A DNA stretch of 64,000 bases, taken from contig WQYT01000001.1 in the NCBI GenBank assembly GCA_009781115.1, forward strand, positions 13,413-77,412, in the 5' to 3' direction. The notes under the pieces were generated by a model, which had not been told where the DNA came from, did no database searches, and worked only from the letters and a program-made list of their open reading frames with translations. The DNA comes from Coriobacteriia bacterium. GTDB lineage: Bacteria > Actinomycetota > Coriobacteriia > WRKU01 > WQUG01. Made by a program: the position numbers and the translations under genes. Position 1 is the first letter of the stretch. Each line of letters opens with the position of its first letter. Of this stretch, positions 33,897-58,559 are shown piece after piece.

Positions 33897-33900
33897 CGCA

Positions 33901-35916: not shown

Positions 35917-35973
35917 ATGCTCCCGTTGAATCCTTCCTCTACTGAAATAAGTGCAGAAACAGGTAATCTCCTA

Positions 35974-40357: not shown

Positions 40358-40426
40358 AGAGCGTTCTGTCTGTATCACGTAGCTTTCGCGTTGCCACAAA
40401 CAGAAGTTTTTCACTCCAAGTTTCCT

Positions 40427-40897
40427 TTATGAGAAGGAAGAGCGGAACGTGAAGAACTTATTGCCGATATAGGATATGGCCGTCGAGACACAGACTGTGA
40501 CCAGTTGCCCCACTAGCGCCGGGAAGCCAAGCACCTGAACGCAGAAGGCCAACACGCTTGACGCGAACAATTGCGGCAGAAGATACACCCCATAAGCACG
40601 CAACACCTGCCGGGGATACGAGCCCTCGCGCCTGAATACGAAGCGACGCATCGTGTAGGCACTGACCGGCACCGTAAAAAACCACGCGATCCAATTGACA
40701 ACGACGTAATAATGCTTCCCTACAAAGCGCAGTGCAGACATCTGGGCCGCCGCCAGAAGAGAAGCCTCCGGCTTCAGGGCCCATAACAACAGCGCGAACA
40801 GCCCGTAGTTAAAGGCAGTGTTACAGCCGCCCGTAACCAGGAACCGTATGGGCTCGCGCGCCCACAGTTTGTGTATGATGTCTGCCAATCGCTTCAT
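40427..40897 (-). CDS. GtrA-family polysaccharide synthesis/flippase-like membrane protein
   Basis: 156 aa, 4 TM, FLVTGGCNTAFNYGLF GtrA-like N-terminus. Confidence 0.75.
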   Translation of the reverse strand: MKRLADIIHKLWAREPIRFLVTGGCNTAFNYGLFALLLWALKPEASLLAAAQMSALRFVGKHYYVVVNWIAWFFTVPVSAYTMRRFVFRREGSYPRQVLRAYGVYLLPQLFASSVLAFCVQVLGFPALVGQLVTVCVSTAISYIGNKFFTFRSSFS

Positions 40898-41868
40898 GAA
40901 TGAAGGCGCGCGCCGGTCACGCGCGTCAGCTCTATCTCGAAAAACAACCGGGTCTGCTTGCGGATCGAGTCAACGATCACCCCGCAGACGCCCGAAAGCA
41001 GCGACATGACAAAGAGCCCGATCGAAACAATCAAGGTCGGAAAACGCGTTACCAGACCTGTGGTAATGAACTCGTCGAGCGGAATCAGGAACAGCCCAAA
41101 CGCTACTATGAAGACGATCAGCGAGACCAGCCCAAAGAACAGGAGCGGACGGAAGTCCTTAAAGAGCGCAAAGATTGTTTTGAGCACCCGCAGACCGTCC
41201 GGGATCGTGTCAAGCTTACTCTGGCTCCCCTCACGACGGTCGCGATAGCCAACCGAATGCTGGGTCACCAGAAAGTCCTTGTCAAGCGCATGGATCGTCA
41301 TCTCGGTCTCGACCTCAAAACCGCCGGAAAACGAGGGGTAGGTTTTGACAAACGCGCGTGAGAACGCGCGTGCGCCAGTCATCACGTCGGTGATGTCGCT
41401 GGTAAAAATCCGGTTGATCAGCCAACGCACGCCCCGGTTGCCCGCGTTGTGAAACGCCCGCTTATTCTCCGTAAAATACGTACCGGAGAGGCGATCGCCA
41501 ACCACCATGTCTGCACGCCCGGCAGCCACGTCTTTACCAAGCGCCACCACGTCAGTTGCCTCATAAGTGTCGTCAGCGTCAACCATCAGGTAGACGCCGG
41601 CCTCAATGTCGCGAAACATCGAGCGCACCACAAAGCCCTTGCCCTGCCGGTACTCCGGCACCACCACCGCCCCTGCCTGGCGCGCCTCCTCAGCAGAGTT
41701 ATCCGTGGAATTGTTGTCATACACATAGATATCCGCCTCAGGCAGAAGCGCCCGATAGTCTTTGATCACCTTCGCGATTGTGGATCCCTCGTTGTAGCAG
41801 GGTATAAGAATGGCTGTTCTCACTCTGTTCCTTTCGTCCCGGTGTTGATTGTCAGTTCTGAAAGTCAT
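40894..41868 (-). CDS. Family 2 glycosyltransferase, polyprenyl-phosphate sugar transferase (GtrB/DPM1-like) with C-terminal TM anchor
   Basis: ILIPCYNEGSTI...DNNSTDNS...DADD GT2 motifs; two C-terminal TM helices; overlaps gtrA-like gene by 4 nt. Confidence 0.8.
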   Translation of the reverse strand: MTFRTDNQHRDERNRVRTAILIPCYNEGSTIAKVIKDYRALLPEADIYVYDNNSTDNSAEEARQAGAVVVPEYRQGKGFVVRSMFRDIEAGVYLMVDADDTYEATDVVALGKDVAAGRADMVVGDRLSGTYFTENKRAFHNAGNRGVRWLINRIFTSDITDVMTGARAFSRAFVKTYPSFSGGFEVETEMTIHALDKDFLVTQHSVGYRDRREGSQSKLDTIPDGLRVLKTIFALFKDFRPLLFFGLVSLIVFIVAFGLFLIPLDEFITTGLVTRFPTLIVSIGLFVMSLLSGVCGVIVDSIRKQTRLFFEIELTRVTGARLHS

Positions 41869-43519: not shown

Positions 43520-44317
43520 TCACGCGGAAGGAGGCTTCGCGGAACCGAAGCCTTGGACAGCGTACGTGCCTGAACGGGGGTCGCGCTCGATGACGATGTA
43601 GCCTTTCTCGGCTGCTTCTTCCAGAAGCTGGTTGAAGCTGCGATAGCCGTAGCTGCGCTCTGAGAACTGGGGCAGCTTACGCCGGATCGTGTCCTTGATG
43701 CGGGAGCTGTGGATGTTCGTGATGTTCTCGCGCAACAGCGCGTCGATGGTCTCAAGCAGCAGCTTGTACACCGTGCGTTGCTTGCGCGGAATGTCGGCGC
43801 CCAGCTTGGGAACCTCTTTGCTCGCCCCGATATCATCGTAGAAGATGAATTCGTCGCAGTTGGCGGCAAGCAGGTCGCTCGTGGCTTCGCGCATACCGAC
43901 GCCGATGACGGTCTTGCCATACTCCTTGAGCTTGCTTACCAGTGGCAGGAAATCCGAGTCGCCGCTGATGATGACGAAGGTATCGATGTTGCCCCGCGAC
44001 GAGCAGTACTCCATCGCGTCAACGACCAGGCGGATATCCGCTGAGTTCTTGCCGCTGACGCGGCGCTGGGGGATCTCGATCAACTCGATACCCAGCTCAT
44101 GAAGCGGCGTCACGTAGCTTGTGTAGTTTTGCCAGTCGCAGTAGGCAATCTTTGCTACTATCTTGCCTTTTTCAAGCAGCCGATCAAATACCTTGCGCAT
44201 GTCGATAGTCTGCGTGGTTTTGCGCTTGCGTCCATTGGGCATATCCTTGAGCCCCAGGACCAAATTCTCGAAGTCAATAAAGACCGCGAGTGAATGTTCA
44301 GTTGTTGTGTCAGCCAT
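43520..44317 (-). CDS. NYN-domain (LabA-like) protein with C-terminal OST-HTH/LOTUS-like domain
   Basis: AVFIDFENL...FVIISGDSDFLPLV NYN motifs; GGAG RBS; flanked by inverted ~85-bp repeats. Confidence 0.7.
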   Translation of the reverse strand: MADTTTEHSLAVFIDFENLVLGLKDMPNGRKRKTTQTIDMRKVFDRLLEKGKIVAKIAYCDWQNYTSYVTPLHELGIELIEIPQRRVSGKNSADIRLVVDAMEYCSSRGNIDTFVIISGDSDFLPLVSKLKEYGKTVIGVGMREATSDLLAANCDEFIFYDDIGASKEVPKLGADIPRKQRTVYKLLLETIDALLRENITNIHSSRIKDTIRRKLPQFSERSYGYRSFNQLLEEAAEKGYIVIERDPRSGTYAVQGFGSAKPPSA

Positions 44318-44483: not shown

Positions 44484-46016
44484 TTACTGTTCTTCAAAAA
44501 GGACCGACTCGTCGGTGCCACGCGCCTGTGCGATCAGGCGCAGCCGTACGCGAGCCAGACCAGCCTCCAGCCCCACCGGGTAGCTATGAGGCAAAAGGAA
44601 GCGTTTGTGGGTCTCATTCAGCGTGTCCAGGCCAGCCAGCGTTCGTGCGCGAAGCTCACTGAGAGCAGCGGGAGCGGCGTCTTTGTGCGGCGTCCCGCTT
44701 GCGACCACCGGCTGCAGGAGCTCACGACTTTGCGCGTCCGGGGCAAAGGACTTGCTGCGGGTCATATCCGCTGGATCAAACATCGTGACCGGCGCCCCCT
44801 GCGCGGGCGGGCAGACGCCGTCAGTGACAAACACCCCAGGGGTGTTTGTCACATCGTAAACCAGGTCGCCGTCCAGCTTGCCGTCGGCGCGATAGTAACG
44901 GCGCACACTTTGCACGCCGGGGATTGTTGTTTTTGCGCTCTGGTCAGAGAGTTTGAGTTTAGGTTGCCAGACTCCGGCATCATCAGCCAGCGCCGAGAGC
45001 TTGTAGACCCCGCCAAGCGCCGCCGTCGGATAACCGGTGGCCAGGCGCGTACCGACCGCCCAGACATCAATGGGTGCGCCCTGGTCCTTGAGCGAGGTGA
45101 TGGTATACTCATCGAGCTCATTGCTGCAATAGATCTTCGTGGCAGCAAAACCCGCCTCATCAAGTAAGGCGCGCGCCTGCTTGGAGCGCCAGGCCAAGTC
45201 CCCGGAGTCGATGCGGATCCCCAGCAGCTCATGGCCTTGCGCGCGCATCTCACGGCCCACGGTGATTGCGTTGCGCACCCCTTGCAGCGTGTCATAGGTA
45301 TCGACCAGGAGCACCAGATTGTTGGGAGCAGAGCGCGCGTAAGCCCGAAACGCCGTCAGCTCGTCATCAAAGGCCATGACCCAGCTGTGGGCGTGGGTGC
45401 CCGCCACCGGAATGCCGTAGAGCGCGCCCGCCTCAACGTTTGATGTTGCTGAGCAACCACCAATATAGGCCGCGCGCGAGGCCATGAGCCCACCATCGGG
45501 GCCCTGGGCACGGCGCAGACCAAACTCCAGCAGCGCAGCGCCGCCTGCCGCCAGCGCACAACGGGCCGCCTTCGTCGCGATCAGCGTCGAGAAGTTGATG
45601 AGATTAAGCAGCGGCGTCTCCAGCAGCTGGCATTGCTCGATGGGGCCCGTGACGCGCAGCAGGGGCTCCTGCGCAAAGCAGATCTCTCCCTCGGGCAGGG
45701 CCGCGACATCAATGCTCAGCCGCAGGTCCCGCAGATGCTCAAGGAACTCCGGGCAAAAAAGTGGCGTGCCGTCAGGTGCAGGCAAGGTGGCAAGATAGGC
45801 GATTTCGCGCTCGTCAAAGTGCCAATCACGCAGATAGTCAAGTACGGGCCCCAGACCGGCGGCAACAGCAAAGCCCCCGTCAAAGGGATTGCTGCGAAAG
45901 CTCAGAATAAAGCAGGCCTGGCGCTCGCCTATCCCGGCCTGAAAGTAGCCCTGTGCCATCGTCAGCTGGTACAGATCCGTGCGCAACGCCGCATTGTTTT
46001 GCGCGCCATCAGCCAT
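44484..46016 (-). CDS. pncB: Nicotinate phosphoribosyltransferase PncB
   Basis: LYQLTMAQGYF N-terminus; AGTHAHSWV catalytic region. Contains a 29-bp palindrome in-frame at 44824-44852; start overlaps the gatB stop by 8 nt. Confidence 0.85.
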   Translation of the reverse strand: MADGAQNNAALRTDLYQLTMAQGYFQAGIGERQACFILSFRSNPFDGGFAVAAGLGPVLDYLRDWHFDEREIAYLATLPAPDGTPLFCPEFLEHLRDLRLSIDVAALPEGEICFAQEPLLRVTGPIEQCQLLETPLLNLINFSTLIATKAARCALAAGGAALLEFGLRRAQGPDGGLMASRAAYIGGCSATSNVEAGALYGIPVAGTHAHSWVMAFDDELTAFRAYARSAPNNLVLLVDTYDTLQGVRNAITVGREMRAQGHELLGIRIDSGDLAWRSKQARALLDEAGFAATKIYCSNELDEYTITSLKDQGAPIDVWAVGTRLATGYPTAALGGVYKLSALADDAGVWQPKLKLSDQSAKTTIPGVQSVRRYYRADGKLDGDLVYDVTNTPGVFVTDGVCPPAQGAPVTMFDPADMTRSKSFAPDAQSRELLQPVVASGTPHKDAAPAALSELRARTLAGLDTLNETHKRFLLPHSYPVGLEAGLARVRLRLIAQARGTDESVLFEEQ

Positions 46017-47568
46017 CGAGCTTCTCTCCCAACAACTCGTTCACTACCTGCGGATTGGCCTGTCCGTGTGTCTCGCGCATGACCTGCCCCACGAAAAATC
46101 CTCTGAGCCCCGTCTTGCCGCTGCGATACTGCTCGACTTTGTCCGGGTTCGCCTCGCAGATCGCGTCGATGACCGCCGCCAATTCCCCGGTGTCGCTGAC
46201 CTGCTTCAGCCCCCGGGACTCGATGATCTCCGCAGGATCAGCGCCCGTCTCGATCATGTCGGCGAAAACCTCCTTGGCCTGCTTGCCTGAGATCGCCCCC
46301 TCGTCGGCCAGCATGACCAGCGCCGCGGCGCCCGCTGGCGTCACTTTGCTCGCGGACAGTTCCTGTCCGGCTGCATTGAGCGCGCCGATCAGGTCGTTGA
46401 CGATCAGGTTGGCGAGCGGTTTTGCCAGCGTGTCCAGCTTGGCGCCCAGCGCCCCGGCAGCTTCCTCGTAGAAGGCGCAAAGCTCCAGATCCTCGCTCAG
46501 GATCGCCGCATCTGATGCTGGCAGTCCGTAGTCAGCGCAGAAGCGTTCCTTGCGCGCGTCCGGAAGCTCGGGCAGGCGCGCCACTACCGACGCCACGAAC
46601 TCATCGGAGAACTCGAAAGGCACCATGTCCGGCTCAGGGAAGTAGCGGTAATCGTTGGCCTCCTCCTTGGATCGCAGCGAGCTCGTGACCTTGCGCCCGG
46701 CGTCCCAGTGCCGCGTTTCCTGCGCCACGGCGCCGCCGCTTTCGAGGATCTCTGCCTGCCGCACGATCTCATAGGCCACCGCATCATGAAGCGACTTGAA
46801 CGAGTTCATGTTCTTGACCTCGGCGCGGATGCCCAGCTCGGCCTGGCCTCGTGGCCGCAGGCTGATGTTGGCGTCGACGCGCATCGATCCGCTCTCCAGA
46901 TTGCCGTCCGAGATCCCCAGCGTCAGCCAGATCAGGCGCAGCTTCTGCACGAAACGCCGCGCTTCCTCCGGTGTGCGGATGTCAGGCTCGCTCACGAGCT
47001 CCATCAGCGGCGTGCCCGCGCGGTTGTAGTCGACCAGGCTGTGCGTCGCGCCCGCGATGCGCCCCTCGCTGCCACCCACGTGCACCATCTTGCCCGTGTC
47101 CTCCTCCAGGTGGATGCGCGTGATGCCGATGCGTGTTTCGTAGCCGTCCTCGGTCGGCGTCACCACGCCAGGCTGGTCGCGATCCAGGCGCTGCGCGATC
47201 CCCTCCTTGCCCACTTCGATCGTGAGCTGCCCCTCTTTGCAGAACGGGCGGTCGTACTGCGAGATCTGGTAGTTCTTGGGCATGTCGGGATAAAAGTAGT
47301 TCTTGCGGTGGAACTGGCTGACGCGCTCGATCTCACAGCCGGTGGCAAGCCCCGCGAGCACGGTCCACTCGATGGCCGCCTCATTGGGCACGGGCAGCGC
47401 GCCGGGCATGCCCAGGCAGACCGGGCAGACCCGCGTGTTGGGCTCGCCGCCGTGAGCGGTCTCGCAGCCGCAGAACATCTTCGTGCGCGTTGCGGTGATC
47501 TCGGTGTGGATCTCCAGGCCGATAACGGGCTCCCAGGTTCGCATCACTTCTTCGAGTGTCTTGCGCAT
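46009..47568 (-). CDS. gatB: Asp-tRNA(Asn)/Glu-tRNA(Gln) amidotransferase subunit B
   Basis: Start at internal ATG 47568 (MRKTLEEVMRTWEPVIGLEIHTEI) with GGAAAG RBS; the track ORF 5' extension is non-homologous. Confidence 0.9.
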   Translation of the reverse strand: MRKTLEEVMRTWEPVIGLEIHTEITATRTKMFCGCETAHGGEPNTRVCPVCLGMPGALPVPNEAAIEWTVLAGLATGCEIERVSQFHRKNYFYPDMPKNYQISQYDRPFCKEGQLTIEVGKEGIAQRLDRDQPGVVTPTEDGYETRIGITRIHLEEDTGKMVHVGGSEGRIAGATHSLVDYNRAGTPLMELVSEPDIRTPEEARRFVQKLRLIWLTLGISDGNLESGSMRVDANISLRPRGQAELGIRAEVKNMNSFKSLHDAVAYEIVRQAEILESGGAVAQETRHWDAGRKVTSSLRSKEEANDYRYFPEPDMVPFEFSDEFVASVVARLPELPDARKERFCADYGLPASDAAILSEDLELCAFYEEAAGALGAKLDTLAKPLANLIVNDLIGALNAAGQELSASKVTPAGAAALVMLADEGAISGKQAKEVFADMIETGADPAEIIESRGLKQVSDTGELAAVIDAICEANPDKVEQYRSGKTGLRGFFVGQVMRETHGQANPQVVNELLGEKLDG

Positions 47569-47605: not shown

Positions 47606-49579
47606 CTAGGGCGCAGACCCCGACGTCTGATCCTGAGTCGGCGGAGCATAGAGCAAGACCGGCAGGCCCAGCTGATAGTCCTGGCTGCCGGCCGGGAACT
47701 GCTGCGTGACGATACCGGTCCGCTGTCCTTTGGGCAGCGGTACCACCCAGGGGTCCAGCCCCAGAGAGCGCAGCTTATCCTGCGCCGAGGCAAGCGGGGT
47801 ACCGAGCAAGCTGGGAACCTTCACCGCGGGGTTTGTTCCCGCGCTGATCAGCACGCCGACCGTAGCGCCCGCGGCAAGACGCGTGTCCGTGGACTGCGGG
47901 ACCTGGGCCACCACCTTGCCCGCAGACGCGGAGCTGGTCACGATACGTCGCACGTCAACATTGAAACCGGCATTTTTGAGCGCCTTGGTTGCCGCAGCCT
48001 CATCCTGGCCGGTCACATCGGGCACAATCATGCCGCTGGTCGAGTTGCCCTGGCTGACAAGCACCATAACTACCGAGCCCGGCAACGCCAGCCCGGTCGA
48101 TGCGGGCGTCTGCGCCACGGCCTCGTTCACGGCGCCAAATACCGTCTGCGCGTAGTAAAACAGGGGGATAAATCCCTGATCACTCAAGAGCTTTGTAGCG
48201 TCTGCTTTGGAGAGCCCGAGGACTTTTGGCACGGTAACTGAGGTGCTCATCGAGCCCTGGCTGATCAGCACCGCGACCTTTGATCCGCTGTCTACTGTGG
48301 TTCCGGCAACCGGAACCTGCCCGACAATCTGCCCGGGCGGCACCGTATCGCTGAAGGTTTTGACCTCCTGATAGACCAGCCGCGACTCTGTGAGCGCGGT
48401 GCTCGCATCAGAGGGCGCCATACGCAGTACCGAAGGCACCAGCGCCTGTTCAGAGGCTTGCGCGACCGTCAGGCTCACGGCAGAGCCGCGCGCCACCTTA
48501 GTATCAACCTGAGGGTCCTGGTCCATGATAGTACCCGGCACAACATCGGCCGTCGGCTTTTCTGTCAGCTGGCCAACCTTGAGATGGCTGCTATTGAGGG
48601 CAGCTACCGCATCAGTCTGATTCTTGCCAACCAGATCGGGAACAGTCACCTGGTTATAATACACCTGGTACCAGACAAACGCGCCGGCCAAAAGCAGGAC
48701 GGCCAGCCCTCCGACGATCAACGCAATCTGGAGTTTTCGCTGTGACTTCTGCGGCCCATTGGCCTCAGCTATCAGGCGCTCTTCGGCAGACGCCATGGCG
48801 TTCTGCGCCCGATCAAGCACCCCGAAAAATCCCCGCATGCGGGGCTCGTCATCAGCATCGGGAGCGTCTAAGGCATCCTGGATGTCTAAGGCATCAAGCG
48901 TATCTAGGGCGCCGGTATCTGCGTCCTCGTCTCCGGGCAGCACGTCAGGCTCCGGCAAGGTTGAGGTGCTGGTTTCCATGCGCAGGTTTTCAAGCGCCTT
49001 ATTAATAACCCCCTCGTCAACGGCATCCGGGACCGCCTTTTCCTCCAGAATGCGCTGAAGGACCTCCTCGCTTATCTGCTTTTCTTCCGAGGCGGGCTTT
49101 GCTTCCGGGTGTTGTTTAGCTGGGCTTTCGGGCTCCCTTTTATCAGGCGCCTGGGGCTTTGTGTTGTCCTTTGCTTTTGAGGCGGCGTCTGGCTTGGGCT
49201 TGGGCTTGGGCTTCGGCTTCGGTTTTGGGGTTGCTTTTTGCCGGGGCTTTGGCTTCGGCTTCGATTGTGGCTTTGGCTTTGGTTCTGCCTCGGGCCTGGA
49301 TGCTGGCGCGGATTTTTCCTGAGCTTCCGATGCAAGCTTTGGCGCGGATTTCTCTGTCGGTTTTGACGCGGGCTTCTCCATAGGCTTTGGCGCGAGCTTC
49401 TTCTCTGCGATCTCTGCCGACGCAGCAGTCTTTCCTGCGGCCTTTGTCCCCGCCTTCTGCCCAGAAGGAGCTTTCGACTCGACCTGCGGCTTGTCCCCGG
49501 GCTGCGGCTTGCCCTCGACCTGCAGCTTGCCCTCGGCTTGCGGCTTCGCGTTAGATTCTGGTTTGGCTTTATCTGGCAT
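47606..49579 (-). CDS. Kinase-less PASTA-repeat membrane protein with long Lys/Pro-rich disordered cytoplasmic N-terminus
   Basis: KPKPKP repeats; single TM (LQIALIVGGLAVLLLAGAFVW); ~5 extracellular PASTA-like repeats (VPDLVGKNQTDA..., VPKVLGLSKADA..., VPDVTGQDEAAA..., VPSLLGTPLASA...). Start ATG overlaps the gatA stop (TAATG). Confidence 0.75.
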   Translation of the reverse strand: MPDKAKPESNAKPQAEGKLQVEGKPQPGDKPQVESKAPSGQKAGTKAAGKTAASAEIAEKKLAPKPMEKPASKPTEKSAPKLASEAQEKSAPASRPEAEPKPKPQSKPKPKPRQKATPKPKPKPKPKPKPDAASKAKDNTKPQAPDKREPESPAKQHPEAKPASEEKQISEEVLQRILEEKAVPDAVDEGVINKALENLRMETSTSTLPEPDVLPGDEDADTGALDTLDALDIQDALDAPDADDEPRMRGFFGVLDRAQNAMASAEERLIAEANGPQKSQRKLQIALIVGGLAVLLLAGAFVWYQVYYNQVTVPDLVGKNQTDAVAALNSSHLKVGQLTEKPTADVVPGTIMDQDPQVDTKVARGSAVSLTVAQASEQALVPSVLRMAPSDASTALTESRLVYQEVKTFSDTVPPGQIVGQVPVAGTTVDSGSKVAVLISQGSMSTSVTVPKVLGLSKADATKLLSDQGFIPLFYYAQTVFGAVNEAVAQTPASTGLALPGSVVMVLVSQGNSTSGMIVPDVTGQDEAAATKALKNAGFNVDVRRIVTSSASAGKVVAQVPQSTDTRLAAGATVGVLISAGTNPAVKVPSLLGTPLASAQDKLRSLGLDPWVVPLPKGQRTGIVTQQFPAGSQDYQLGLPVLLYAPPTQDQTSGSAP

Positions 49580-51096
49580 TATGCACCTAAAACGTTCACG
49601 GGTACCGTCTGATACGGGAACTGATAGTCCTGTTCGAGCGCTGAAGCCGCGCGGAAGACGTTTGCCTCGTCGAAGTAGTTCCCGATCAGCTGCACCCCGA
49701 GCGGCAAGCCCGCCGCAGAGAGCTTCGTGGGCAGATGCAGCGCGGTGTTGCCTGCCAGGTTGACGGGGATTGTGAACACATCAGAAAGATACATCGAGAG
49801 CGGATCGGTCGTTTTCTCGCCCAGCTTGAATGCAGGGGTCGGCGCCGTTGGCGTCAGTATCAGGTCGTAGTCGGCAAAGACGCGGTCGAAGTCCTGCTTG
49901 ATGACCGTGCGCGCCTTCTGTGCACGGGCGTAGTAGGCGTCATAGTAGCCGGCGGAGAGCACATAGGTCCCAATCATCACGCGCCGGATCGTCTCGGGCC
50001 CAAAGCCCTCGGCGCGGCTGCGCATATAGAGGTCGAGCACGTCAGTGGCGTCCTGGGCCCGCAGGCCGTAGCGAATGCCGTCAAAGCGCGCCAGGTTGCC
50101 GCTTGCCTCAGCCGGCCCCACGATGTAGTAAGCGGCCAACCCGTACTGGGTGCTGGGCAGCGTTGCCTCGCCCACCTCGGCGCCCATCCGCGTAAGGCGC
50201 TCGGCCGCGTCAAGCACGTCCGCCTTGACCTCCGGATCCAGCCCCTCAAGCTCCAGGAAGTCAGTAGCTACCGCCACGCGCAGACCCTTCAGGTCGGCGC
50301 CCAGCGCCTGACTATAGTCCGGCACCGGCGCCTCTACGCTGGTTGCATCGTAACGGTCCTTGCCGCTGATAACCTGCAACGCCAGCGCCGCATCGCGCAC
50401 CGTACGGGCAAACGGCCCGATCTGGTCAAGCGAGGAGGCAAAGGCCACGCAGCCATAGCGCGAGACGCGCCCGTAAGTAGGCTTGAGCGCCACAACGCCA
50501 CAGCAGGCGCCCGGCTGGCGGATCGAGCCACCCGTGTCTGAGCCGAGCGTGATGGGGGCAAGCCCTGCGGCCACCGCCGCGGCCGAGCCACCGGAGGACC
50601 CGCCCGGCACGCGCGCCAGATCCCAGGGATTATGCGTGGGGCCAAAGGCAGAGTTCTCCGTCGAGGAGCCAAAGGCGAACTCATCCATGTTGAGCTTGCC
50701 GAGCGGCAGCGTGCCCGCGTCAAGCAGACGACGCACCGCCGTGCAGTCATAGGCCGACTCGTAATTACTGAGAATGCGCGACGAACAAGTCGTGCGCGTC
50801 CCCTGCAGATTCATATTGTCTTTGAACGCCACGGGCGCGCCCACGAGCGCGCTATCCGGCAACCCGTCGCCGGGCTTGTCGCCCGCCGCAAGCTTCTTGT
50901 CAAGCTCATCAGCCGCTGCGTAAGCCAGCGCATCAGAGCGCTGGTTGTAGGCATGGACCTGCGCGTCGCAGGCATCCGCATGCGCGTAGGCCGCATCAAC
51001 AACCTCGCGCGCTGACACTTCGCGCGCACAAACCAGCCGCGATATCTCAGTGGCTGGCTTAAACATCAGATCCTGAGGATTTGCAGCAACAGCCAT
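49579..51096 (-). CDS. gatA: Glu-tRNA(Gln)/Asp-tRNA(Asn) amidotransferase subunit A
   Basis: Amidase signature GGSSGGSAAAVA. Confidence 0.9.
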   Translation of the reverse strand: MAVAANPQDLMFKPATEISRLVCAREVSAREVVDAAYAHADACDAQVHAYNQRSDALAYAAADELDKKLAAGDKPGDGLPDSALVGAPVAFKDNMNLQGTRTTCSSRILSNYESAYDCTAVRRLLDAGTLPLGKLNMDEFAFGSSTENSAFGPTHNPWDLARVPGGSSGGSAAAVAAGLAPITLGSDTGGSIRQPGACCGVVALKPTYGRVSRYGCVAFASSLDQIGPFARTVRDAALALQVISGKDRYDATSVEAPVPDYSQALGADLKGLRVAVATDFLELEGLDPEVKADVLDAAERLTRMGAEVGEATLPSTQYGLAAYYIVGPAEASGNLARFDGIRYGLRAQDATDVLDLYMRSRAEGFGPETIRRVMIGTYVLSAGYYDAYYARAQKARTVIKQDFDRVFADYDLILTPTAPTPAFKLGEKTTDPLSMYLSDVFTIPVNLAGNTALHLPTKLSAAGLPLGVQLIGNYFDEANVFRAASALEQDYQFPYQTVPVNVLGA

Positions 51097-51398
51097 CAGG
51101 CATCAGCCCCCGGTCCAATGATCCGCGGGATCAGGATCGCGTCGGCCTCGCGCGCGGGCGCGTTCATGAGCGCGCGCTCCCGGTCAAGGCCGGGTACGGG
51201 CACGTCTTCGCGCATCGAGTTGACGAGCGGGATCGAGTGCACCATCGGCTCGACGTCAGCAAGGTCAAGTTTTGATATCTGATCGATGTAGTCAAACACA
51301 CCATTCAGCTCAGTCTGCAAAGTCGCAACCTGCTCTTCGGTCAGCGCAATACGCGCCAACAGCGCGACATGGCGCACTTCTTCTTGTGTTAATGCCAT
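51096..51398 (-). CDS. gatC: Amidotransferase subunit C
   Basis: 100 aa, LTQEEVRHVALLARIAL...; operon position. Confidence 0.85.
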   Translation of the reverse strand: MALTQEEVRHVALLARIALTEEQVATLQTELNGVFDYIDQISKLDLADVEPMVHSIPLVNSMREDVPVPGLDRERALMNAPAREADAILIPRIIGPGADA

Positions 51399-51527
51399 AA
51401 CTGCCTTTCAATCACAGAAACACAGGAGCTTCCCGGCTCCCAGATATCGTTTGGTTCCTTATCACATTATACGGAACAACAAGAGCCCCTCGCGAAAAAC
51501 GCAAGAGGGCTTACGGGACAGTGACGC

Positions 51528-53063
51528 CTAATAATTCGCAAGATGGGCGGCCACGTCCTGGATTATCACCGGATTATACGCAGGGTTCAGCCATTTGAGC
51601 ACCGAGACAACATGCGCCTGCGATGTTGCGGTGCACCCCGCCGTATAGCTGGCGCCCCCATCACCGTGAAAGAATATGCCGCTTCCGACGCCGGGCGTTC
51701 TTGCCGTATTGTATTTGATCACAAACCCGTAATTGTAATAAGGCCGGATATAATACATTCTTTCATTGGCTGGATCCTTCCAGAGCGGACTGGAGGTCGA
51801 TACGTTCTGCAAAGTATTGTAGACGGCAGGATAGGCGGGGTTTTCAACCCAGATATCACCCGGCTTGAACAGGTGATAGGACAGTTTTGTTCCGGGATTA
51901 CTATACTCCCCAAACGCCATGCCAACCAGATACTTGCCCGCAGGAGACCGGGGGTCGCCTTCCCTGGTCTTGCCCAGGCCGTTTTTCCCCAGGATGCCCG
52001 ACATGGACGACACCAACTGCCACCCTGAACTTGTTTTTTGGTAGGTCCTGATCGTTGCGGAGCGAGACGACGCGCTCGGCGCGGTAACCAGGATCAATTG
52101 CCGCACATTTCCCAAGCTCTTCATTGCATTGACGGTCTGAGCGGTGTTGCCAAGGGCTATCCCGTGCACCAGGACACGATCGACACAGACAAGCTTGGGG
52201 GCAGAAGAGGTCACCGTGACCTTCAAGGTATGGACTTTTGTGGCGCCCAATCCTTCACGATGGAAAAGCGCCTGCTTATAAGAAGTCTTGGGGGCAGTCA
52301 TTGTGACCGCCTTCTGGGTCACTCCGTCAAGAACAACTGAGGCAGATCCATAAGTTGCAGCAGTGACCCCGACCCACTCAATTGCGTCCCCTTTGAAAGA
52401 GACCTGGAATGCGGCGCCTTTATGGCTGGTGAGTTTAACGGCTCCGCCGATGCAGGCAGAAGAGGTGGCCTTGCTCCAGGCGCCGGAATAAGTGATGCAA
52501 GCAGAGGTGTCTTCATAGGCGTTCCAGCCGCTGCCCGCAGTTCTTGCCGGAGCAAAGATAACCGCGGCGCCGTTGTGCACCATGATGTTATCGACGCAGA
52601 CAAGCTTGGGCGCCGCACTGGTGACCGTGACCGTCAAGGTATGAGTCTGGCTGGGGTTAAGGCCCGTCTTAGAGAACAAGGCCTGCTTGTAGCAGGTGGA
52701 TGTGGTGGTCAGGTTGATAGTCCCCTGGCTTACGGCATCTAAGATGACCTGTGCCTTGCCGTAGGTGGCCGCTCTTATGCCATCCCATTCGATGCCGTCT
52801 CCGGTAAAGCGTATCTGGAAAGCAGAACCGGCCTTACTGGAGAGCATGACCGCGCCACCAGAGCAGACAGAAGAGGTCGCCTTGCCCCAGGTTCCGTAGT
52901 AGTTGATGTACCCACTGCTCTCCGGATAGGCGACCCAACCGTTACCAGAAGGCGTGGCGGGGTTCAACACTTGCGTCACTGCACCCGCGCCGCTGAACGG
53001 CAGCAAGCTGAAAATCACCAGAATCGAGAGAGTGCAAGCCAATAATGTTAGAAATCGCTTCAT
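51528..53063 (-). CDS. Secreted L,D-transpeptidase (YkuD-like) with two tandem ~150-aa beta-sandwich (carbohydrate-binding-like) N-terminal repeats
   Basis: Signal peptide; internal duplication (GNGWVAYPESSGYINYYGTWGKATSS... vs GSGWNAYEDTSACITYSGAWSKATSS...); C-terminal catalytic HG...GC motif (GIFFHGDGGASYTAGCTATS). Confidence 0.65.
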   Translation of the reverse strand: MKRFLTLLACTLSILVIFSLLPFSGAGAVTQVLNPATPSGNGWVAYPESSGYINYYGTWGKATSSVCSGGAVMLSSKAGSAFQIRFTGDGIEWDGIRAATYGKAQVILDAVSQGTINLTTTSTCYKQALFSKTGLNPSQTHTLTVTVTSAAPKLVCVDNIMVHNGAAVIFAPARTAGSGWNAYEDTSACITYSGAWSKATSSACIGGAVKLTSHKGAAFQVSFKGDAIEWVGVTAATYGSASVVLDGVTQKAVTMTAPKTSYKQALFHREGLGATKVHTLKVTVTSSAPKLVCVDRVLVHGIALGNTAQTVNAMKSLGNVRQLILVTAPSASSRSATIRTYQKTSSGWQLVSSMSGILGKNGLGKTREGDPRSPAGKYLVGMAFGEYSNPGTKLSYHLFKPGDIWVENPAYPAVYNTLQNVSTSSPLWKDPANERMYYIRPYYNYGFVIKYNTARTPGVGSGIFFHGDGGASYTAGCTATSQAHVVSVLKWLNPAYNPVIIQDVAAHLANY

Positions 53064-56602: not shown

Positions 56603-56836
56603 CTACTTGTAGCGATACGTGATGCGACCACGACTCAGGTCGTAGGGCGAAAGCTCAACTTTCACGCGGTCGCCCGGAAGGATACGGATGTAGTGCATGC
56701 GCATCTTACCAGAGATATGAGCCAGAATCTGATGCCCCGGGCCGTTCTCGTTATCGAGTTCGACCTTAAACATCGCATTGGGGAGCGGCTCGATAACCGT
56801 CCCTTCAAGCTCAATTGCTGCTTCTTTTTCTGTCAA
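56603..56836 (-). CDS. infA: Translation initiation factor IF-1
   Basis: [20 protein letters not shown]...[15 protein letters not shown]. Confidence 0.85.
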
Positions 56837-58559
56837 AACTTACGTACGCCTTCCTGTCGCAATCTGAGAAAACACGCGGTTTATTATCGTAGCATGCAGC
56901 AGTGCCTATTGCAACCGAGCAGATCTGACTACACGGTATCGACACGCCCGGTGGCGTTGGTTGTGCCCGGTGACTTGGTCGCGCTGGTCGCTTTGGTCGC
57001 TTCGATTGCTTTGACTGCCGCGATTGCTGCGATTGCTGCGACCGGATGATGAGAGGCGGACGGACCGGCTCTATAGTCAGGCCACGATCCTTACCGCCAT
57101 GACCGGGCGTGTCAGTAGTAGGTTTGCTGGGGCCGGGGGTATCTGTTGTTGGCCTGCTGGGCGGAGTAATTATCAGCCCACGATGAGACGGACTGCCGCC
57201 CGTGCCATCATCCTGCCCCCCAGGCGCAGGAGGCAGCGCAGGGGGATTTCCGGGAGACGATGATCCCGGCCCCGGTCCTGACCCCGATCCCGCGTTAGCC
57301 GCGCTTGCGGTGCGACGGCCCGCGGCGCCACCGCGGGCCGCCTGGCCACTCTGAGTCTTGTTCTGCGTAGACGTCTGGGACTGATCGTTTGCGGCGCTTT
57401 TCTGATCGTCGCTACTCTGACTCTGCGTCCCGGAGGAGCCAGACGAGCCCCCCTTGCCGCCGCCAGAGCCGCCGCCGCCCGTGTGGACGACTTTGGCCGC
57501 AGCCTGCTTCTGCGCAGCTGCGGTCGCAGCGCGATGGGCCAGCGTGACGCCCCCGGCTGCCACCCCGGCAACCAGCGCCACGCTGACAACACCGGCCACT
57601 GCCGCCTGGGCGGGATTGGCCGTGGCGCGCGCGATCAGTTTAGGTATCAGCTTGAGCGTCAAAGCGGGCAGGTGCGACGCGTTTGCCGCCGTGGCAGAAG
57701 CCGCCGACGCGCTGATGGCCGTCCCCGCAATTACCGGAGCTGTGGCAGAAGCCAACGCGGGCAGACCCACGGCGCGCACCACATTGCTCCAGATATCGGG
57801 GGCAACCGTCAGCAAAGAATGATGCTCCGGTATCAGGCGCGCGACGCTGGCGCTCAGCTCGCCAAAATTCGGCGACAATTCAAACTGCATAAGCTGGCGA
57901 GTGATAAACGGCACAATGAGCATCGCATCCATGCGCCCCAGGGCCGAGTTGACCTCAAATCCTGGCATGGTTGCGGCCAGGGATGGCTCGCCTTCTCCAA
58001 GCAGAACCAGCAAGTGCCGGCGCGCCTTGAAAAGCCGGGAGCGCGCCGCCGTATACGTGACCCCGAGAACACCCGCGATATCATCGACCGAAAGGCCCTC
58101 GACGTAATACAGCAAAATAACTTCTTTTTGCTTCTGGGAAAGCGACTGGATCGCCGCCCAGGTCTCCTCGTCTGCCTCGTGCGCCTCCAGGGCCTCATCC
58201 GGGGAAAAACTCTCGCTGCCGCCTAAAAGATCGGCCAGTATGTCCTGACCCAGCTCTGCGCTGATGTCATGCTCATGCTTGCGCGCCTGTAGCATTCCGC
58301 GGCAAGCGCTGGCGATGACCGCGTTCAGCCAGGTCTGGAAGTAGTCAGAATTCTTCAGCTCCTCAATATGTTTATAGACATGAATGAAAGCAGCCTGAGT
58401 GACCTTCTGCGCCTCCTCCCGATCATTAAGCAACACGAGCGCCCGGTAGTAGACAAGCGGCAGCAGCTCTGCGTAGAGTTGCTCGAAATTCTCCTCTTTA
58501 TCCGCGCGGACCTGGTCGACCAGAGCGATCAGGCGTTCTTTATTCAGCTGCTGTTTCAC
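56811..58559 (-). CDS. ECF-type sigma-70 factor fused to a C-terminal anti-sigma-like segment, TM helix and Gly/Ser/Pro/Gln-rich extracytoplasmic tail
   Basis: Region 2 ([17 protein letters not shown]...[14 protein letters not shown]...FQTWLNAVI) and region 4 ([44 protein letters not shown]) in the first ~190 aa. [20 protein letters not shown] near residue 340. GTG start; 3' end overlaps infA by 26 nt. Confidence 0.75.

What the first reader, a model, noticed from the sequence alone, without database searches (positions are those of the whole stretch)
47606..49579. Kinase-less PASTA-repeat protein with a long KP-repeat disordered N-terminus embedded in the gatC-gatA-(PASTA)-gatB-pncB operon (window order pncB-gatB-PASTA-gatA-gatC)
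The gene start overlaps the gatA stop (TAATG), its stop is 37 bp from the gatB RBS, and gatB in turn overlaps pncB. A ~330-aa Lys/Pro/Glu-rich cytoplasmic segment precedes one TM helix and about five PASTA-like extracellular repeats, with no kinase or penicillin-binding domain. PASTA modules normally sense muropeptides for Ser/Thr kinases. A stand-alone PASTA protein translationally coupled to tRNA-dependent amidotransferase subunits and NAD salvage is an unexplained linkage, possibly coupling cell-wall status to translation capacity.
Basis: partly seen in the sequence, partly recalled or inferred. Interest (0 to 1): 0.55.

Follow-up and report, generated by a model that had tools for sequence, protein, structure and literature searches.

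The report
Kinase-less PASTA protein inside gatCAB operon
A membrane protein carrying the cell-wall-binding outer part of a bacterial signalling kinase, but no kinase, is encoded in the middle of the operon for an essential tRNA-amidating enzyme throughout a group of uncultured Coriobacteriia, at least partly from termite guts; the placement is real and conserved, but nothing yet shows that the two functions are connected.

Summary
ORF 47606-49579 (-) encodes a 657-aa protein with a disordered N-terminus, one TM helix and five PASTA repeats. It has no kinase or PBP domain. Its ATG overlaps the gatA stop, and gatB starts 37 nt after its stop.

The ectodomain is of the Stk1/PknB kinase type by HMM and by predicted fold.

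The gene order is not a one-off. All 15 distinct relatives with 42-80% identity in the TM+PASTA region have gatB directly downstream. All 13 whose contig reaches upstream have gatA directly upstream. Gene gaps stay tight while the outer flanks differ. GatB and PASTA identities fall together, and dN/dS is about 0.1-0.2. A more distant subclade (31-34%) keeps the gene near gat genes only loosely. Other Coriobacteriia have gatA-gatB adjacent with no PASTA gene.

The KP-rich tail is lineage-specific, built from DNA tandem repeats, and absent or acidic in relatives. Only a short cytoplasmic helix motif is conserved, and it matches no other protein family.

Best reading: a non-catalytic peptidoglycan/lipid II-binding membrane adaptor, derived from a PASTA-kinase sensor and trapped in an essential operon. 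Coupling to GatCAB is unproven. This is an uncharacterised variant of a known kind, of moderate interest.

The parts
51096..51398 (-). gatC, first gene of the operon; its stop overlaps the gatA start
   Evidence: Pfam GatC, E=1.3e-19; ORF coordinates
49579..51096 (-). gatA (amidase subunit); its stop TAA overlaps the ATG of the PASTA gene (TAATG)
   Evidence: Pfam Amidase, E=8e-149; sequence
47606..49579 (-). Kinase-less PASTA membrane protein gene, 657 aa
   Evidence: ORF; Pfam PASTA, E=1.1e-47; NCBIfam PknB_PASTA_kin matched only over model positions 307-562 of 563, 165 bits against a cut-off of 450
49100..49579 (-). Codons 1-160: Lys/Pro/Ala-rich basic disordered tail; lineage-specific
   Evidence: Composition; pLDDT<50; DNA tandem repeats at 49190-49282 (6 nt x 15.5), 49336-49401 (24 nt) and 49478-49546 (18/36 nt); absent or acidic in relatives
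48968..49069 (-). Codons 171-204: two predicted cytoplasmic helices carrying the family-conserved motif D[DE]xxI[DE]xAL..LR (residues 186-200 = 48980-49024)
   Evidence: Alignments; AF2 helices 171-181 and 186-204, pLDDT up to 85; dN/dS 0.06-0.2 for residues 161-285
48830..48967 (-). Codons 205-250: Asp-rich acidic disordered linker, ending in the conserved G[FI]FG motif
   Evidence: Composition; alignment; pLDDT<50
48656..48829 (-). Codons 251-308: juxtamembrane helix (254-272), KSQRK positive patch and the single transmembrane helix (281-308)
   Evidence: Hydropathy; AF2
47636..48649 (-). Codons 311-648: five extracytoplasmic PASTA repeats (311-376, 379-443, 448-512, 517-582, 586-648); family signatures PLFYYAQTxFG (repeat 3) and QQFPAG..Y.LGLPVLLYA (repeat 5)
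   Evidence: Pfam; AF2 pLDDT 85-97; Foldseek top matches are PrkC/Stk1 3py9 and 3m9g and PknB 2kui and 5e12; phmmer aligns repeats 2-5 to PknB PASTA1-4; repeats are 25-41% identical to each other
46009..47568 (-). gatB; ATG lies 37 nt after the PASTA stop
   Evidence: Pfam GatB_N and GatB_Yqey; sequence
44484..46016 (-). pncB (nicotinate phosphoribosyltransferase); overlaps the gatB end by 8 nt
   Evidence: Pfam NAPRTase_N, NAPRTase_C and NAPRTase; coordinates
51486..51508 (-). Terminator-like hairpin between the upstream YkuD-like gene and gatC; likely 5' boundary of the gat transcription unit
   Evidence: Consensus scan, 9-bp stem with 6 GC pairs. This is a consensus match only.

Best explanation
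The gene encodes a bitopic (N-in/C-out) membrane protein. Its extracytoplasmic part is a five-repeat PASTA rod of the Stk1/PknB kinase type. Its cytoplasmic part has no catalytic domain. It consists of a lineage-variable disordered tail, a short conserved amphipathic helix motif (D[DE]xxI[DE]xAL..LR) and a G[FI]FG juxtamembrane motif. The most likely function is a non-catalytic cell-envelope protein. By analogy with kinase PASTA domains, the ectodomain would bind lipid II or nascent, un-crosslinked peptidoglycan. This would place the protein at sites of wall synthesis. There it would act as an adaptor or modulator, for the cognate PASTA kinase or for wall synthases, through its ectodomain and its short cytoplasmic helices. 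Its position between gatA and gatB is an old insertion, vertically inherited within one Coriobacteriia lineage. The tight spacing gives constitutive, growth-coupled co-expression with an essential operon, and the integrity of that operon has kept the gene in place. No biochemical connection to GatCAB needs to be assumed. Shown here: domain architecture, predicted topology and fold, kinase-type affinity of the ectodomain, purifying selection, conserved gene order and spacing, and non-conservation of the KP tail. Inferred: ligand binding, localisation, the adaptor or modulator role, and that the operon position is not mechanistically meaningful.
For: Architecture. Kinase-type PASTA: NCBIfam PknB_PASTA_kin scores 165 bits over the C-terminal half of the model, against 16 bits for SpoVD. 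The Foldseek top five are PrkC/Stk1 and PknB ectodomains, E from 1e-14 to 3e-10, ahead of PBP1 and PBP2x. The nearest non-family sequence relatives are PASTA kinases at 30-37% identity. Purifying selection: dN/dS is 0.12-0.23 for TM+PASTA and 0.06-0.20 for residues 161-285. Conserved order: 15 distinct lineages with gatB 2-70 nt downstream. In the 13 whose contig reaches upstream, gatA ends between -1 and +15 nt of the PASTA start. Outer flanks differ: YkuD or toxin-antitoxin genes or ligA-Rce1 upstream, and pncB-NYN-M20, pncB-pncA or DegV downstream. Co-divergence of PASTA and GatB identities: Spearman 0.80, p=6e-4, consistent with vertical inheritance. A PASTA ectodomain without its kinase is biologically active: overexpressed or added PknB_PASTA delays regrowth, elongates cells and sensitises mycobacteria to beta-lactams (PMC4632501). 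The PknB ectodomain binds lipid II and this directs localisation (PMC6428115). Junction permissiveness: unrelated genes lie between gatA and gatB in other lineages. Sister Coriobacteriia have gatA and gatB adjacent (L011-L013).
Against: No ligand-binding or localisation evidence exists for this family. Of the four PknB residues reported to contact iGln and mDAP (S556, K557, N559, Q560), the aligned positions in the repeat 4-5 linker read S, A, T, N, so only one is identical. No PASTA kinase lies in the 64-kb window, so a cognate partner is unverified. Persistence of the exact gatA-PASTA-gatB order and tight spacing down to about 61% GatB identity, while both outer flanks change, is also what functional coupling would predict. 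In the distant subclade the gene still tends to sit next to gatA or gatB (L009, L092).
Confidence: 0.5

Rival explanations
1. Functional coupling to GatCAB. The protein tethers or regulates the tRNA-dependent amidotransferase (or the transamidosome) at the membrane, so that Asn-/Gln-tRNA supply or translational fidelity responds to cell-wall status sensed by the PASTA rod.
For: The exact order gatA-PASTA-gatB, with a -1 to +15 nt gap before and a 2-70 nt gap after, is kept in all 15 lineages of the closer subclade although both outer flanks vary. In the distant subclade the gene is still next to gatB (L009) or after gatCA (L092). A conserved cytoplasmic helix of unknown partner exists. Full PASTA kinases lie 1-4 kb upstream of gatC in an Acidimicrobiia MAG and a Bifidobacteriaceae MAG.
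Against: The cytoplasmic region has no detectable homology to any GatCAB-, tRNA- or ribosome-binding module. A profile search of 1.84 billion proteins returned only the family itself plus two giant repetitive proteins. Most of the cytoplasmic region is disordered and not conserved in length, sequence or even charge. Close Coriobacteriia/Eggerthellales relatives run gatCAB without the gene (L011-L013). L108 has no gatA within the about 2.5 kb of contig upstream of the PASTA gene. The junction holds unrelated genes elsewhere. No paper in the library links PASTA and gat genes.
Confidence: 0.12
2. Dedicated antagonist (decoy) of the organism's PASTA kinase. The kinase-less paralogue competes for lipid II or muropeptide, or forms non-productive hetero-oligomers through its PASTA repeats, and so sets the threshold of Ser/Thr kinase signalling.
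For: The ectodomain is of the kinase type and matches the TM and PASTA parts of the Stk1-family model. An isolated PknB PASTA domain perturbs growth and wall homeostasis in mycobacteria (PMC4632501). Sequestering the ligand or abolishing binding mislocalises and hyperactivates PknB (PMC6428115).
Against: Five repeats with family-specific signatures, only 30-37% identical to any kinase found, suggest long independent evolution rather than mimicry of a partner. The conserved cytoplasmic helix would be unnecessary for a pure decoy. The cognate kinase has not been seen.
Confidence: 0.2
3. The Lys/Pro-rich tail is the functional part. It would be a histone-H1-like nucleic-acid-binding arm that tethers DNA or tRNA to the membrane at sites marked by the PASTA rod.
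For: Residues 1-160 are 22% K and 20% P with net charge +18. Several close orthologues also have K/P/A-rich tails.
Against: The tail is absent in P0007, P0026, P0029 and P0030, and is replaced by an acidic E/D/V-rich tail in L104 and L105. It is made of DNA tandem repeats. It evolves fastest, with dN 0.5-0.9. It is predicted to be fully disordered.
Confidence: 0.05
4. Decaying remnant of a PASTA kinase (or an annotation artefact) with no function of its own.
For: The protein has the C-terminal half of a PASTA kinase only. MAFFT placed the cytoplasmic motif next to the last helix of kinase domains.
Against: An intact ORF is present in every lineage, dN/dS is about 0.1-0.2, and family-specific motifs are conserved. 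The supposed kinase-helix vestige is not supported by profile-profile comparison: hhalign probability 0.5%, and a different region aligned.
Confidence: 0.02

Closest known systems
Stk1/PknB/PrkC/StkP family of PASTA Ser/Thr kinases (NCBIfam NF033483; structures 3py9, 3m9g, 2kui, 5e12)
   Same: Same membrane topology, with a single TM helix followed by a linear array of extracytoplasmic PASTA repeats. Best HMM, sequence and fold matches are to the TM+PASTA half of these kinases.
   Different: No kinase domain: 165 bits against the 450-bit cut-off, and only model positions 307-562 are matched. No Pkinase hit. Five repeats, against four in the Mtb PknB PASTA structure to which repeats 2-5 align. 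The cytoplasmic part is a disordered tail plus a family-specific helix motif found in no other protein. The gene is encoded inside gatCAB.
PASTA-bearing class B penicillin-binding proteins (PBP2x, S. aureus PBP1, SpoVD)
   Same: PASTA fold; weaker structural matches at E from 3e-6 to 1e-3.
   Different: No transpeptidase domain. TIGR02214 SpoVD scores 16 bits against a 688-bit cut-off. In these PBPs the PASTA domains are C-terminal appendages of an enzyme, not the whole ectodomain.
Experimentally expressed kinase-less PknB_PASTA domain in mycobacteria (Turapov et al. 2015, PMC4632501)
   Same: A PASTA array without kinase activity that nevertheless alters growth, cell shape and beta-lactam sensitivity. 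It is the nearest functional precedent for what a natural kinase-less PASTA protein could do.
   Different: It is an artificial construct from a four-repeat kinase. It is not a natural gene, has no conserved cytoplasmic module, and has no operon context.
Other PASTA-only proteins in databases, annotated 'PASTA domain-containing protein' or 'beta-lactam-binding protein with PASTA domain' (e.g. P0032, P0036, P0039)
   Same: PASTA repeats without a kinase or PBP domain. The closest named relatives are MCL2881975.1 and MCL2324852.1, annotated only as 'PASTA domain-containing protein'.
   Different: P0032, P0036 and P0039 are not next to gat genes. They lack the family's repeat-3 and repeat-5 signatures and the cytoplasmic motif.
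Interrupted gat operons of other Actinomycetota (e.g. gatC-gatA-pfkA-gatB in Mycobacterium tuberculosis; recalled from my own knowledge, not checked here)
   Same: A foreign gene sits between gatA and gatB. In the loci fetched here the junction also holds PAS membrane proteins, a Pro-rich TM protein, an alpha/beta hydrolase, an aminotransferase, a DsbA-like protein and a Transgly_assoc protein.
   Different: None of those inserts is a PASTA protein. The PASTA insert is specific to one Coriobacteriia lineage.

Membership tests
PASTA domain (Pfam PF03793) | Sequence match to the PASTA HMM above the gathering score | tested here: met
   160.2 bits against a 23.2 cut-off, E=1.1e-47, 4 stretches
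PASTA domain (Pfam PF03793) | Small alpha/beta fold (one helix packed on a three-stranded sheet), repeated in tandem | tested here: met
   The AF2 model has five helix+strand units, pLDDT 85-97. Foldseek matches solved PASTA domains, E down to 1e-14. This is a predicted, not solved, structure.
PASTA domain (Pfam PF03793) | Extracytoplasmic location | tested here: met
   A single TM helix precedes the repeats, with KSQRK on the N-terminal side (positive-inside rule). This is a prediction only.
Stk1/PknB family PASTA Ser/Thr kinase (NF033483) | N-terminal Hanks-type Ser/Thr kinase domain | tested here: not met
   No Pkinase or PK_Tyr_Ser-Thr hit at E<=0.01. NF033483 scores 165 bits against a 450 cut-off, with only model positions 307-562 matched. 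tblastn with a kinase domain finds nothing in the window. hhalign of the cytoplasmic region against kinases gives probability 0.5%.
Stk1/PknB family PASTA Ser/Thr kinase (NF033483) | Single TM helix followed by several PASTA repeats | tested here: met
Stk1/PknB family PASTA Ser/Thr kinase (NF033483) | Binding of lipid II or muropeptide by the ectodomain (PknB residues S556, K557, N559, Q560; PMC6428115) | tested here: inconclusive
   The phmmer alignment places the repeat 4-5 linker 'SAGTN' opposite PknB 'SKGNQ'. One of the four residues is identical. The peptidoglycan chemistry of the host is unknown. Binding itself is not testable with these tools.
PASTA-containing class B PBP (PBP2x/SpoVD) | Penicillin-binding transpeptidase domain | tested here: not met
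   No transpeptidase Pfam hit. TIGR02214 scores 16 bits against a 688 cut-off, covering only residues 309-373.
gatCAB operon (co-transcribed unit) | Same strand, with no room for an independent promoter or terminator between neighbouring genes | tested here: met
   -1 nt overlap with gatA and 37 nt to gatB. The same holds in all orthologous loci, with gaps of -1 to +15 nt and 2 to 70 nt. No intergenic terminator-like site; two weak hairpin matches (5-bp stems) fall inside the PASTA coding sequence at about 48831-48844 and 48161-48178 and were taken as chance.
gatCAB operon (co-transcribed unit) | Demonstrated co-transcription or translational coupling | not testable with these tools
   Needs RNA-seq or metatranscriptome reads spanning the junctions
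GatCAB functional partner | Physical or functional interaction with GatA, GatB or GatC | not testable with these tools
   There is no homology-based hint. Complex prediction and experiments are not available here.

The most novel reading that the evidence does not exclude
The conserved gatA-PASTA-gatB arrangement reflects a real functional circuit. A kinase-less wall sensor would use its conserved cytoplasmic helix to recruit or regulate GatCAB at the membrane, so that amidated aminoacyl-tRNA supply (and hence translational fidelity or Asn/Gln availability) follows peptidoglycan synthesis. The recurrence of other membrane or exported proteins at the gatA-gatB junction in unrelated lineages (L010, L020, L041, L047, L059) would then be part of the same theme.
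Probability: 0.08. Interest if true: 0.75.

Novelty: new variant of a known kind. Interest (0 to 1): 0.38.

Why it matters
PASTA domains are studied almost only as appendages of kinases and PBPs. This family offers a natural, selected, kinase-less PASTA array with its own conserved cytoplasmic motif. It shows that the sensor module has a life of its own, and it could help separate the ligand-binding and localisation roles of PASTA rods from kinase activation. The conserved embedding in an essential translation operon is a clean example of either long-term operon hitchhiking or an unrecognised wall-translation link. Which of the two applies can be tested with a few binding and interaction experiments. 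Practical impact is limited because the family is so far known only from uncultured Coriobacteriia. At least one source sample is a higher-termite gut metagenome (IMG 3300009784, PMC7800795).

Tried and rejected
1. Vestigial kinase helix. MAFFT aligned the cytoplasmic motif D[DE]xxI..AL..LR with the last helix of kinase domains ('ADEFIxALEQxR'). The spacing differs, and hhalign of the cytoplasmic alignment A4 against the kinase alignment A5 gave probability 0.5%, E=0.12, on a different segment. Rejected as unsupported.

2. Function of the cytoplasmic module by homology. A profile of A4 against 1.84 billion representatives returned only two family representatives and two giant repetitive proteins, which are probably compositional matches. 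Pfam and NCBIfam found nothing there.

3. RNA elements. Rfam gave no match at gathering score anywhere in the window.

4. Literature. No paper in the library combines PASTA with gatB or gatCAB, and none describes kinase-less PASTA proteins in Coriobacteriia.

It was repeated with A2.

6. Mapping of PknB lipid II-contact residues was inconclusive.

7. Recent horizontal insertion. Codon-position GC of the PASTA part (GC3 0.73) is within the range of its neighbours (0.69-0.85), and PASTA identity tracks GatB identity. Rejected.

8. Internal start codon that would skip the tail. No upstream Shine-Dalgarno-like sequence was seen by eye in the 20 nt before Met67, Met201, Met248 or Met262, and only the annotated frame is open. 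Rejected.

9. L108 was checked for gatA upstream of the ABC1-PASTA block. The upstream ORF is a membrane protein, not GatA.

No locus with more than 69% GatB identity was returned, although NCBI MAG proteins of the family exist.
Full report
**Observation**

The ORF at 47606-49579 (minus strand) is 657 codons long and starts with ATG. Its ATG shares one base with the gatA stop (…GGTGCATAATGCC…). An AGGTG Shine-Dalgarno-like motif lies 4 nt upstream. Its TAG stop at 47608-47606 is followed by a 37-nt spacer containing AAAGGAAAG and then the gatB ATG at 47568. The gatC stop overlaps the gatA start at 51096, and gatB overlaps pncB by 8 nt.

Pfam identifies the neighbours as GatC, Amidase (GatA), GatB_N+GatB_Yqey and NAPRTase. 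For the ORF itself the only family at E<=0.01 is PASTA, at 160 bits and E=1.1e-47 with four stretches above threshold. NCBIfam's Stk1-family PASTA-kinase model matches only through its C-terminal half. Model positions 307-562 align to residues 241-508, at 165 bits against a 450-bit cut-off. The SpoVD PBP model scores 16 bits. The finding is confirmed as described.

**Anatomy**

Hydropathy shows a single membrane segment with core at residues 285-303, preceded by KSQRK. This implies an N-in/C-out orientation.

- Residues 1-160 are 22% Lys, 20% Pro and 16% Ala, with net charge +18.
- Residues 161-250 are acidic, with net charge -18.

An AlphaFold2 model built on a 30-sequence alignment has mean pLDDT 72. 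It gives:

- disorder for residues 1-167;
- two short helices at 171-181 and 186-204, with pLDDT up to 85;
- a disordered Asp-rich linker;
- a juxtamembrane helix at 254-272;
- the TM helix at 281-308;
- five helix-plus-strand units at 311-648, with pLDDT 85-97.

Foldseek against the PDB returns kinase ectodomains first: S. aureus PrkC/Stk1 (3py9, 3m9g) and M. tuberculosis PknB (2kui, 5e12), with E from 1e-14 to 3e-10. PASTA domains of PBP1 and PBP2x follow. phmmer aligns repeats 2-5 with PknB PASTA1-4. The five repeats are 25-41% identical to each other, so they are not a recent amplification.

The N-terminal tail is truly coding. Its frame has no stop in 330 codons, against 4-18 stops in the other five frames. 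No internal Met has a ribosome-binding site. Orthologues also begin at the gatA stop. At the DNA level the tail is made of tandem repeats with periods of 6, 18/36 and 24 nt.

**Relatives and gene order**

Two protein searches found eight close orthologues (55-72% identity full length, about 70-80% in the TM+PASTA part). They also found a tail of more distant kinase-less relatives. All come from metagenomes or MAGs labelled Coriobacteriia, Actinomycetia or Actinomycetes. The next-best hits are bona fide PASTA kinases at 30-37% identity. The exact window protein is not in the 15-billion-protein collection. The nearest named entries are MCL2881975.1 and MCL2324852.1, both annotated 'PASTA domain-containing protein'.

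Contig look-ups and a metagenome scan with family-specific peptide patterns gave 15 distinct lineages with 42-80% PASTA identity to the window.

- In every one, gatB follows the PASTA gene after 2-70 nt.
- In all 13 whose contig reaches upstream, gatA ends between -1 and +15 nt of the PASTA start.
- GatB identity to the window in these loci spans 96% down to 61%.
- PASTA and GatB identities fall together (Spearman 0.80, p=6e-4).

The outer flanks are not constant.

- Upstream: a YkuD-like gene in the window and in L001; only a small ORF in L004; ligA-Rce1 in L090.
- Downstream: pncB-NYN-M20, pncB-isochorismatase, pncB about 1 kb away, or DegV.

dN/dS against six orthologues is 0.12-0.23 for TM+PASTA and 0.06-0.20 for residues 161-285. 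Synonymous sites are near saturation, so these values are approximate. The tail evolves much faster.

**Limits of the linkage**

A second, more distant subclade comprises L009, L092/P0034 and L108/P0033, at 31-34% identity. These proteins also have five PASTA repeats and a recognisable repeat-5 signature. In this subclade a divergently transcribed ABC1/UbiB kinase and a 118-aa phasin-like gene lie directly upstream of the PASTA gene where gene calls are available (L092, L108); L009 has the ABC1 kinase plus further genes in a larger block.

- In L009 the block containing the ABC1 kinase and the PASTA gene lies between gatA and gatB, with gatB 886 nt after the PASTA gene.
- In L092 it follows gatC-gatA but is followed by secA.
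- In L108 the upstream ORF is a membrane protein, not gatA.

Other PASTA-only proteins (P0032, P0036, P0039) have no gat neighbours.

In a GatB-seeded scan of species-representative genomes, the three loci next in GatB similarity after L009 and L010 (L011-L013, annotated Eggerthellales, Actinomycetes and Coriobacteriales) have gatA and gatB adjacent without any insert. In L010, PAS-domain membrane proteins fill the gap.

Where the junction is open in other phyla or classes, it holds unrelated genes:

- a Pro-rich TM protein (L041);
- an alpha/beta hydrolase on the opposite strand (L060, L069);
- an aminotransferase (L077);
- a DsbA-like protein (L059);
- a Transgly_assoc membrane protein (L047).

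**What is conserved in the cytoplasmic part**

Alignment of the family shows that the Lys/Pro-rich tail is not a family character. It is missing in P0007, P0026, P0029 and P0030, and is replaced by an acidic E/D/V-rich tail in L104 and L105.

In the closer subclade (PASTA identity 42% or more to the window), the following are conserved:

- a helix motif D[DE]xxI[DE]xAL..LR (window residues 186-200);
- a G[FI]FG motif (residues 250-253);
- in the closest group only, the juxtamembrane helix VLDRAQNAM..AEERL.

A profile of this region searched against 1.84 billion representative proteins found only the family itself and two giant repetitive proteins. The module is therefore family-specific, and homology says nothing about its partner. 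An apparent resemblance to the last helix of kinase domains did not survive profile-profile comparison.

**Mechanism**

The best-supported reading is a non-catalytic envelope protein descended from the sensor half of a PASTA kinase. The basis for a wall-ligand function is analogy.

- The PknB ectodomain binds mDAP-type lipid II, and this governs localisation and controlled activation (PMC6428115).
- A PknB PASTA domain expressed or added without the kinase delays regrowth, elongates cells and raises beta-lactam sensitivity (PMC4632501).

A natural kinase-less PASTA protein could therefore localise to sites of wall synthesis and modulate kinase signalling or synthases. The conserved cytoplasmic helix would provide a docking site. 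I rate this at about 0.5. A pure-decoy version is kept as a separate rival at about 0.2.

The position in gatCAB is most economically explained as an old insertion into an insertion-tolerant junction of an essential operon. Once there, the gene cannot easily leave without disturbing gatB expression, and it gains constitutive, growth-linked expression.

Direct functional coupling to GatCAB is not excluded. The strict conservation of order and spacing while the flanks change is also what coupling would predict. It has no positive evidence beyond synteny, and I rate it at about 0.1.

Two readings are contradicted by the data. The tail is not conserved, which argues against a nucleic-acid-binding function for it. 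Purifying selection argues against a decaying remnant.

**Comparison and novelty**

The protein works like, and is clearly related to, the ectodomain of Stk1/PknB kinases. It fails the defining test of that family because it has no kinase domain. It also fails the PASTA-PBP test because it has no transpeptidase domain. It is a member of the PASTA superfamily only.

Databases already hold it under the generic label 'PASTA domain-containing protein'. No paper in the searchable library describes a PASTA gene in a gat operon or characterises kinase-less PASTA proteins of this lineage. I classify it as a new variant of a known kind. The features that define the variant are a distinct kinase-less family with its own cytoplasmic motif, five repeats with family signatures, and a conserved location inside gatCAB.

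Interest is moderate. The conserved synteny is real and slightly surprising, but the functional link is unproven. The organisms are uncultured; at least sample 3300009784 is a higher-termite gut metagenome.

**Surroundings**

The operon lies directly downstream of the rpsM-rpsK-rpsD-rpoA-rplQ cluster. The remaining gene content is as follows:

- Upstream of gatC: a YkuD-like protein.
- Downstream: NYN/LOTUS and M20 peptidase genes.
- Further downstream: a block of envelope genes comprising a GT2, two TagF-like glycerophosphotransferases (one fused to a Wzy_C domain) and a PcsB-like NlpC/P60 hydrolase.

No Ser/Thr kinase domain is present in the 64-kb window.

Noticed in passing
L010:6413-9166; L020:9069-9985; L041:8640-9974; L047:9666-9956; L059:9189-9989: Where the gatA-gatB junction is not tight, it is mostly occupied by membrane or exported proteins in unrelated lineages. 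Examples are TM+PAS proteins, small multi-TM ORFs, a Pro-rich TM protein with no Pfam match, a Transgly_assoc protein and a signal-anchored DsbA-like protein. Exceptions are an opposite-strand alpha/beta hydrolase (L060, L069) and an aminotransferase (L077). The sample is small and some ORFs were called by eye.
   Followed up: partly
L009:3810-5465 (-); L092:2746-4829 (-); L108:322-2402 (-): In the distant subclade of the PASTA family, a divergently transcribed ABC1/UbiB atypical kinase lies upstream of the PASTA gene in all three loci (L009, L092, L108). A 118-aa phasin-like gene sits between it and the PASTA gene in L092 and L108; in L009 several further genes intervene.
   Followed up: partly
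L041:3939-5780; L060:~480-2279: Full-length PASTA Ser/Thr kinases lie on the same strand 1-4 kb upstream of gatC in an Acidimicrobiia MAG (Pkinase plus 4 PASTA by Pfam) and a Bifidobacteriaceae MAG (kinase and PASTA regions by tblastn only). This could be a coincidence or a hint about the origin of the kinase-less gene.
   Followed up: partly
window 51528-53063 (-): A 511-aa secreted protein lies directly upstream of gatC. It has two similar N-terminal halves (a weak CE2_N-like match) and a weak C-terminal YkuD L,D-transpeptidase match (22.8 bits against a 23.4 cut-off). A terminator-like hairpin follows it at 51486-51508. It is present in L001/L002 but not in L004.
   Followed up: partly
window 43520-44317 (-): A NYN ribonuclease-like domain is fused to an OST-HTH/LOTUS domain. 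It is 90-96% identical in the close relatives and always sits downstream of pncB and upstream of an M20 peptidase.
   Followed up: no
window 32655-41868 (-): A cell-envelope gene block lies downstream of the operon: a GT2 glycosyltransferase, two TagF-like CDP-glycerol glycerophosphotransferases (one fused to a Wzy_C/O-antigen-ligase domain), an amino-acid permease and a PcsB-like coiled-coil NlpC/P60 hydrolase.
   Followed up: no
window 15079-22308 (-): A giant 2409-aa protein with RHS repeats, DUF6531 and a C-terminal PG_binding_1 domain; it looks like a polymorphic toxin.
   Followed up: no
window 22480-23868 (-): A 462-aa protein combines an MFS-like multi-TM region (below the Pfam cut-off) with a C-terminal LuxR/GerE HTH. 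It is a membrane-embedded LuxR-type regulator.
   Followed up: no
window 56811-58559 (-): An ECF-type sigma factor (regions 2 and 4 within the first about 185 aa) carries a C-terminal extension of about 400 aa of unknown nature. A similar 451-aa sigma gene lies in the same region, on the far side of the infA-rpoA-rplQ ribosomal cluster from the gat operon, in L004.
   Followed up: no
P0080 (2687 aa), P0081 (3234 aa): Two giant repetitive proteins match the cytoplasmic-module profile in 8 and 24 stretches (E=1.6e-9 and 1.9e-8). These are probably compositional or coiled-coil matches; they were not examined.
   Followed up: no
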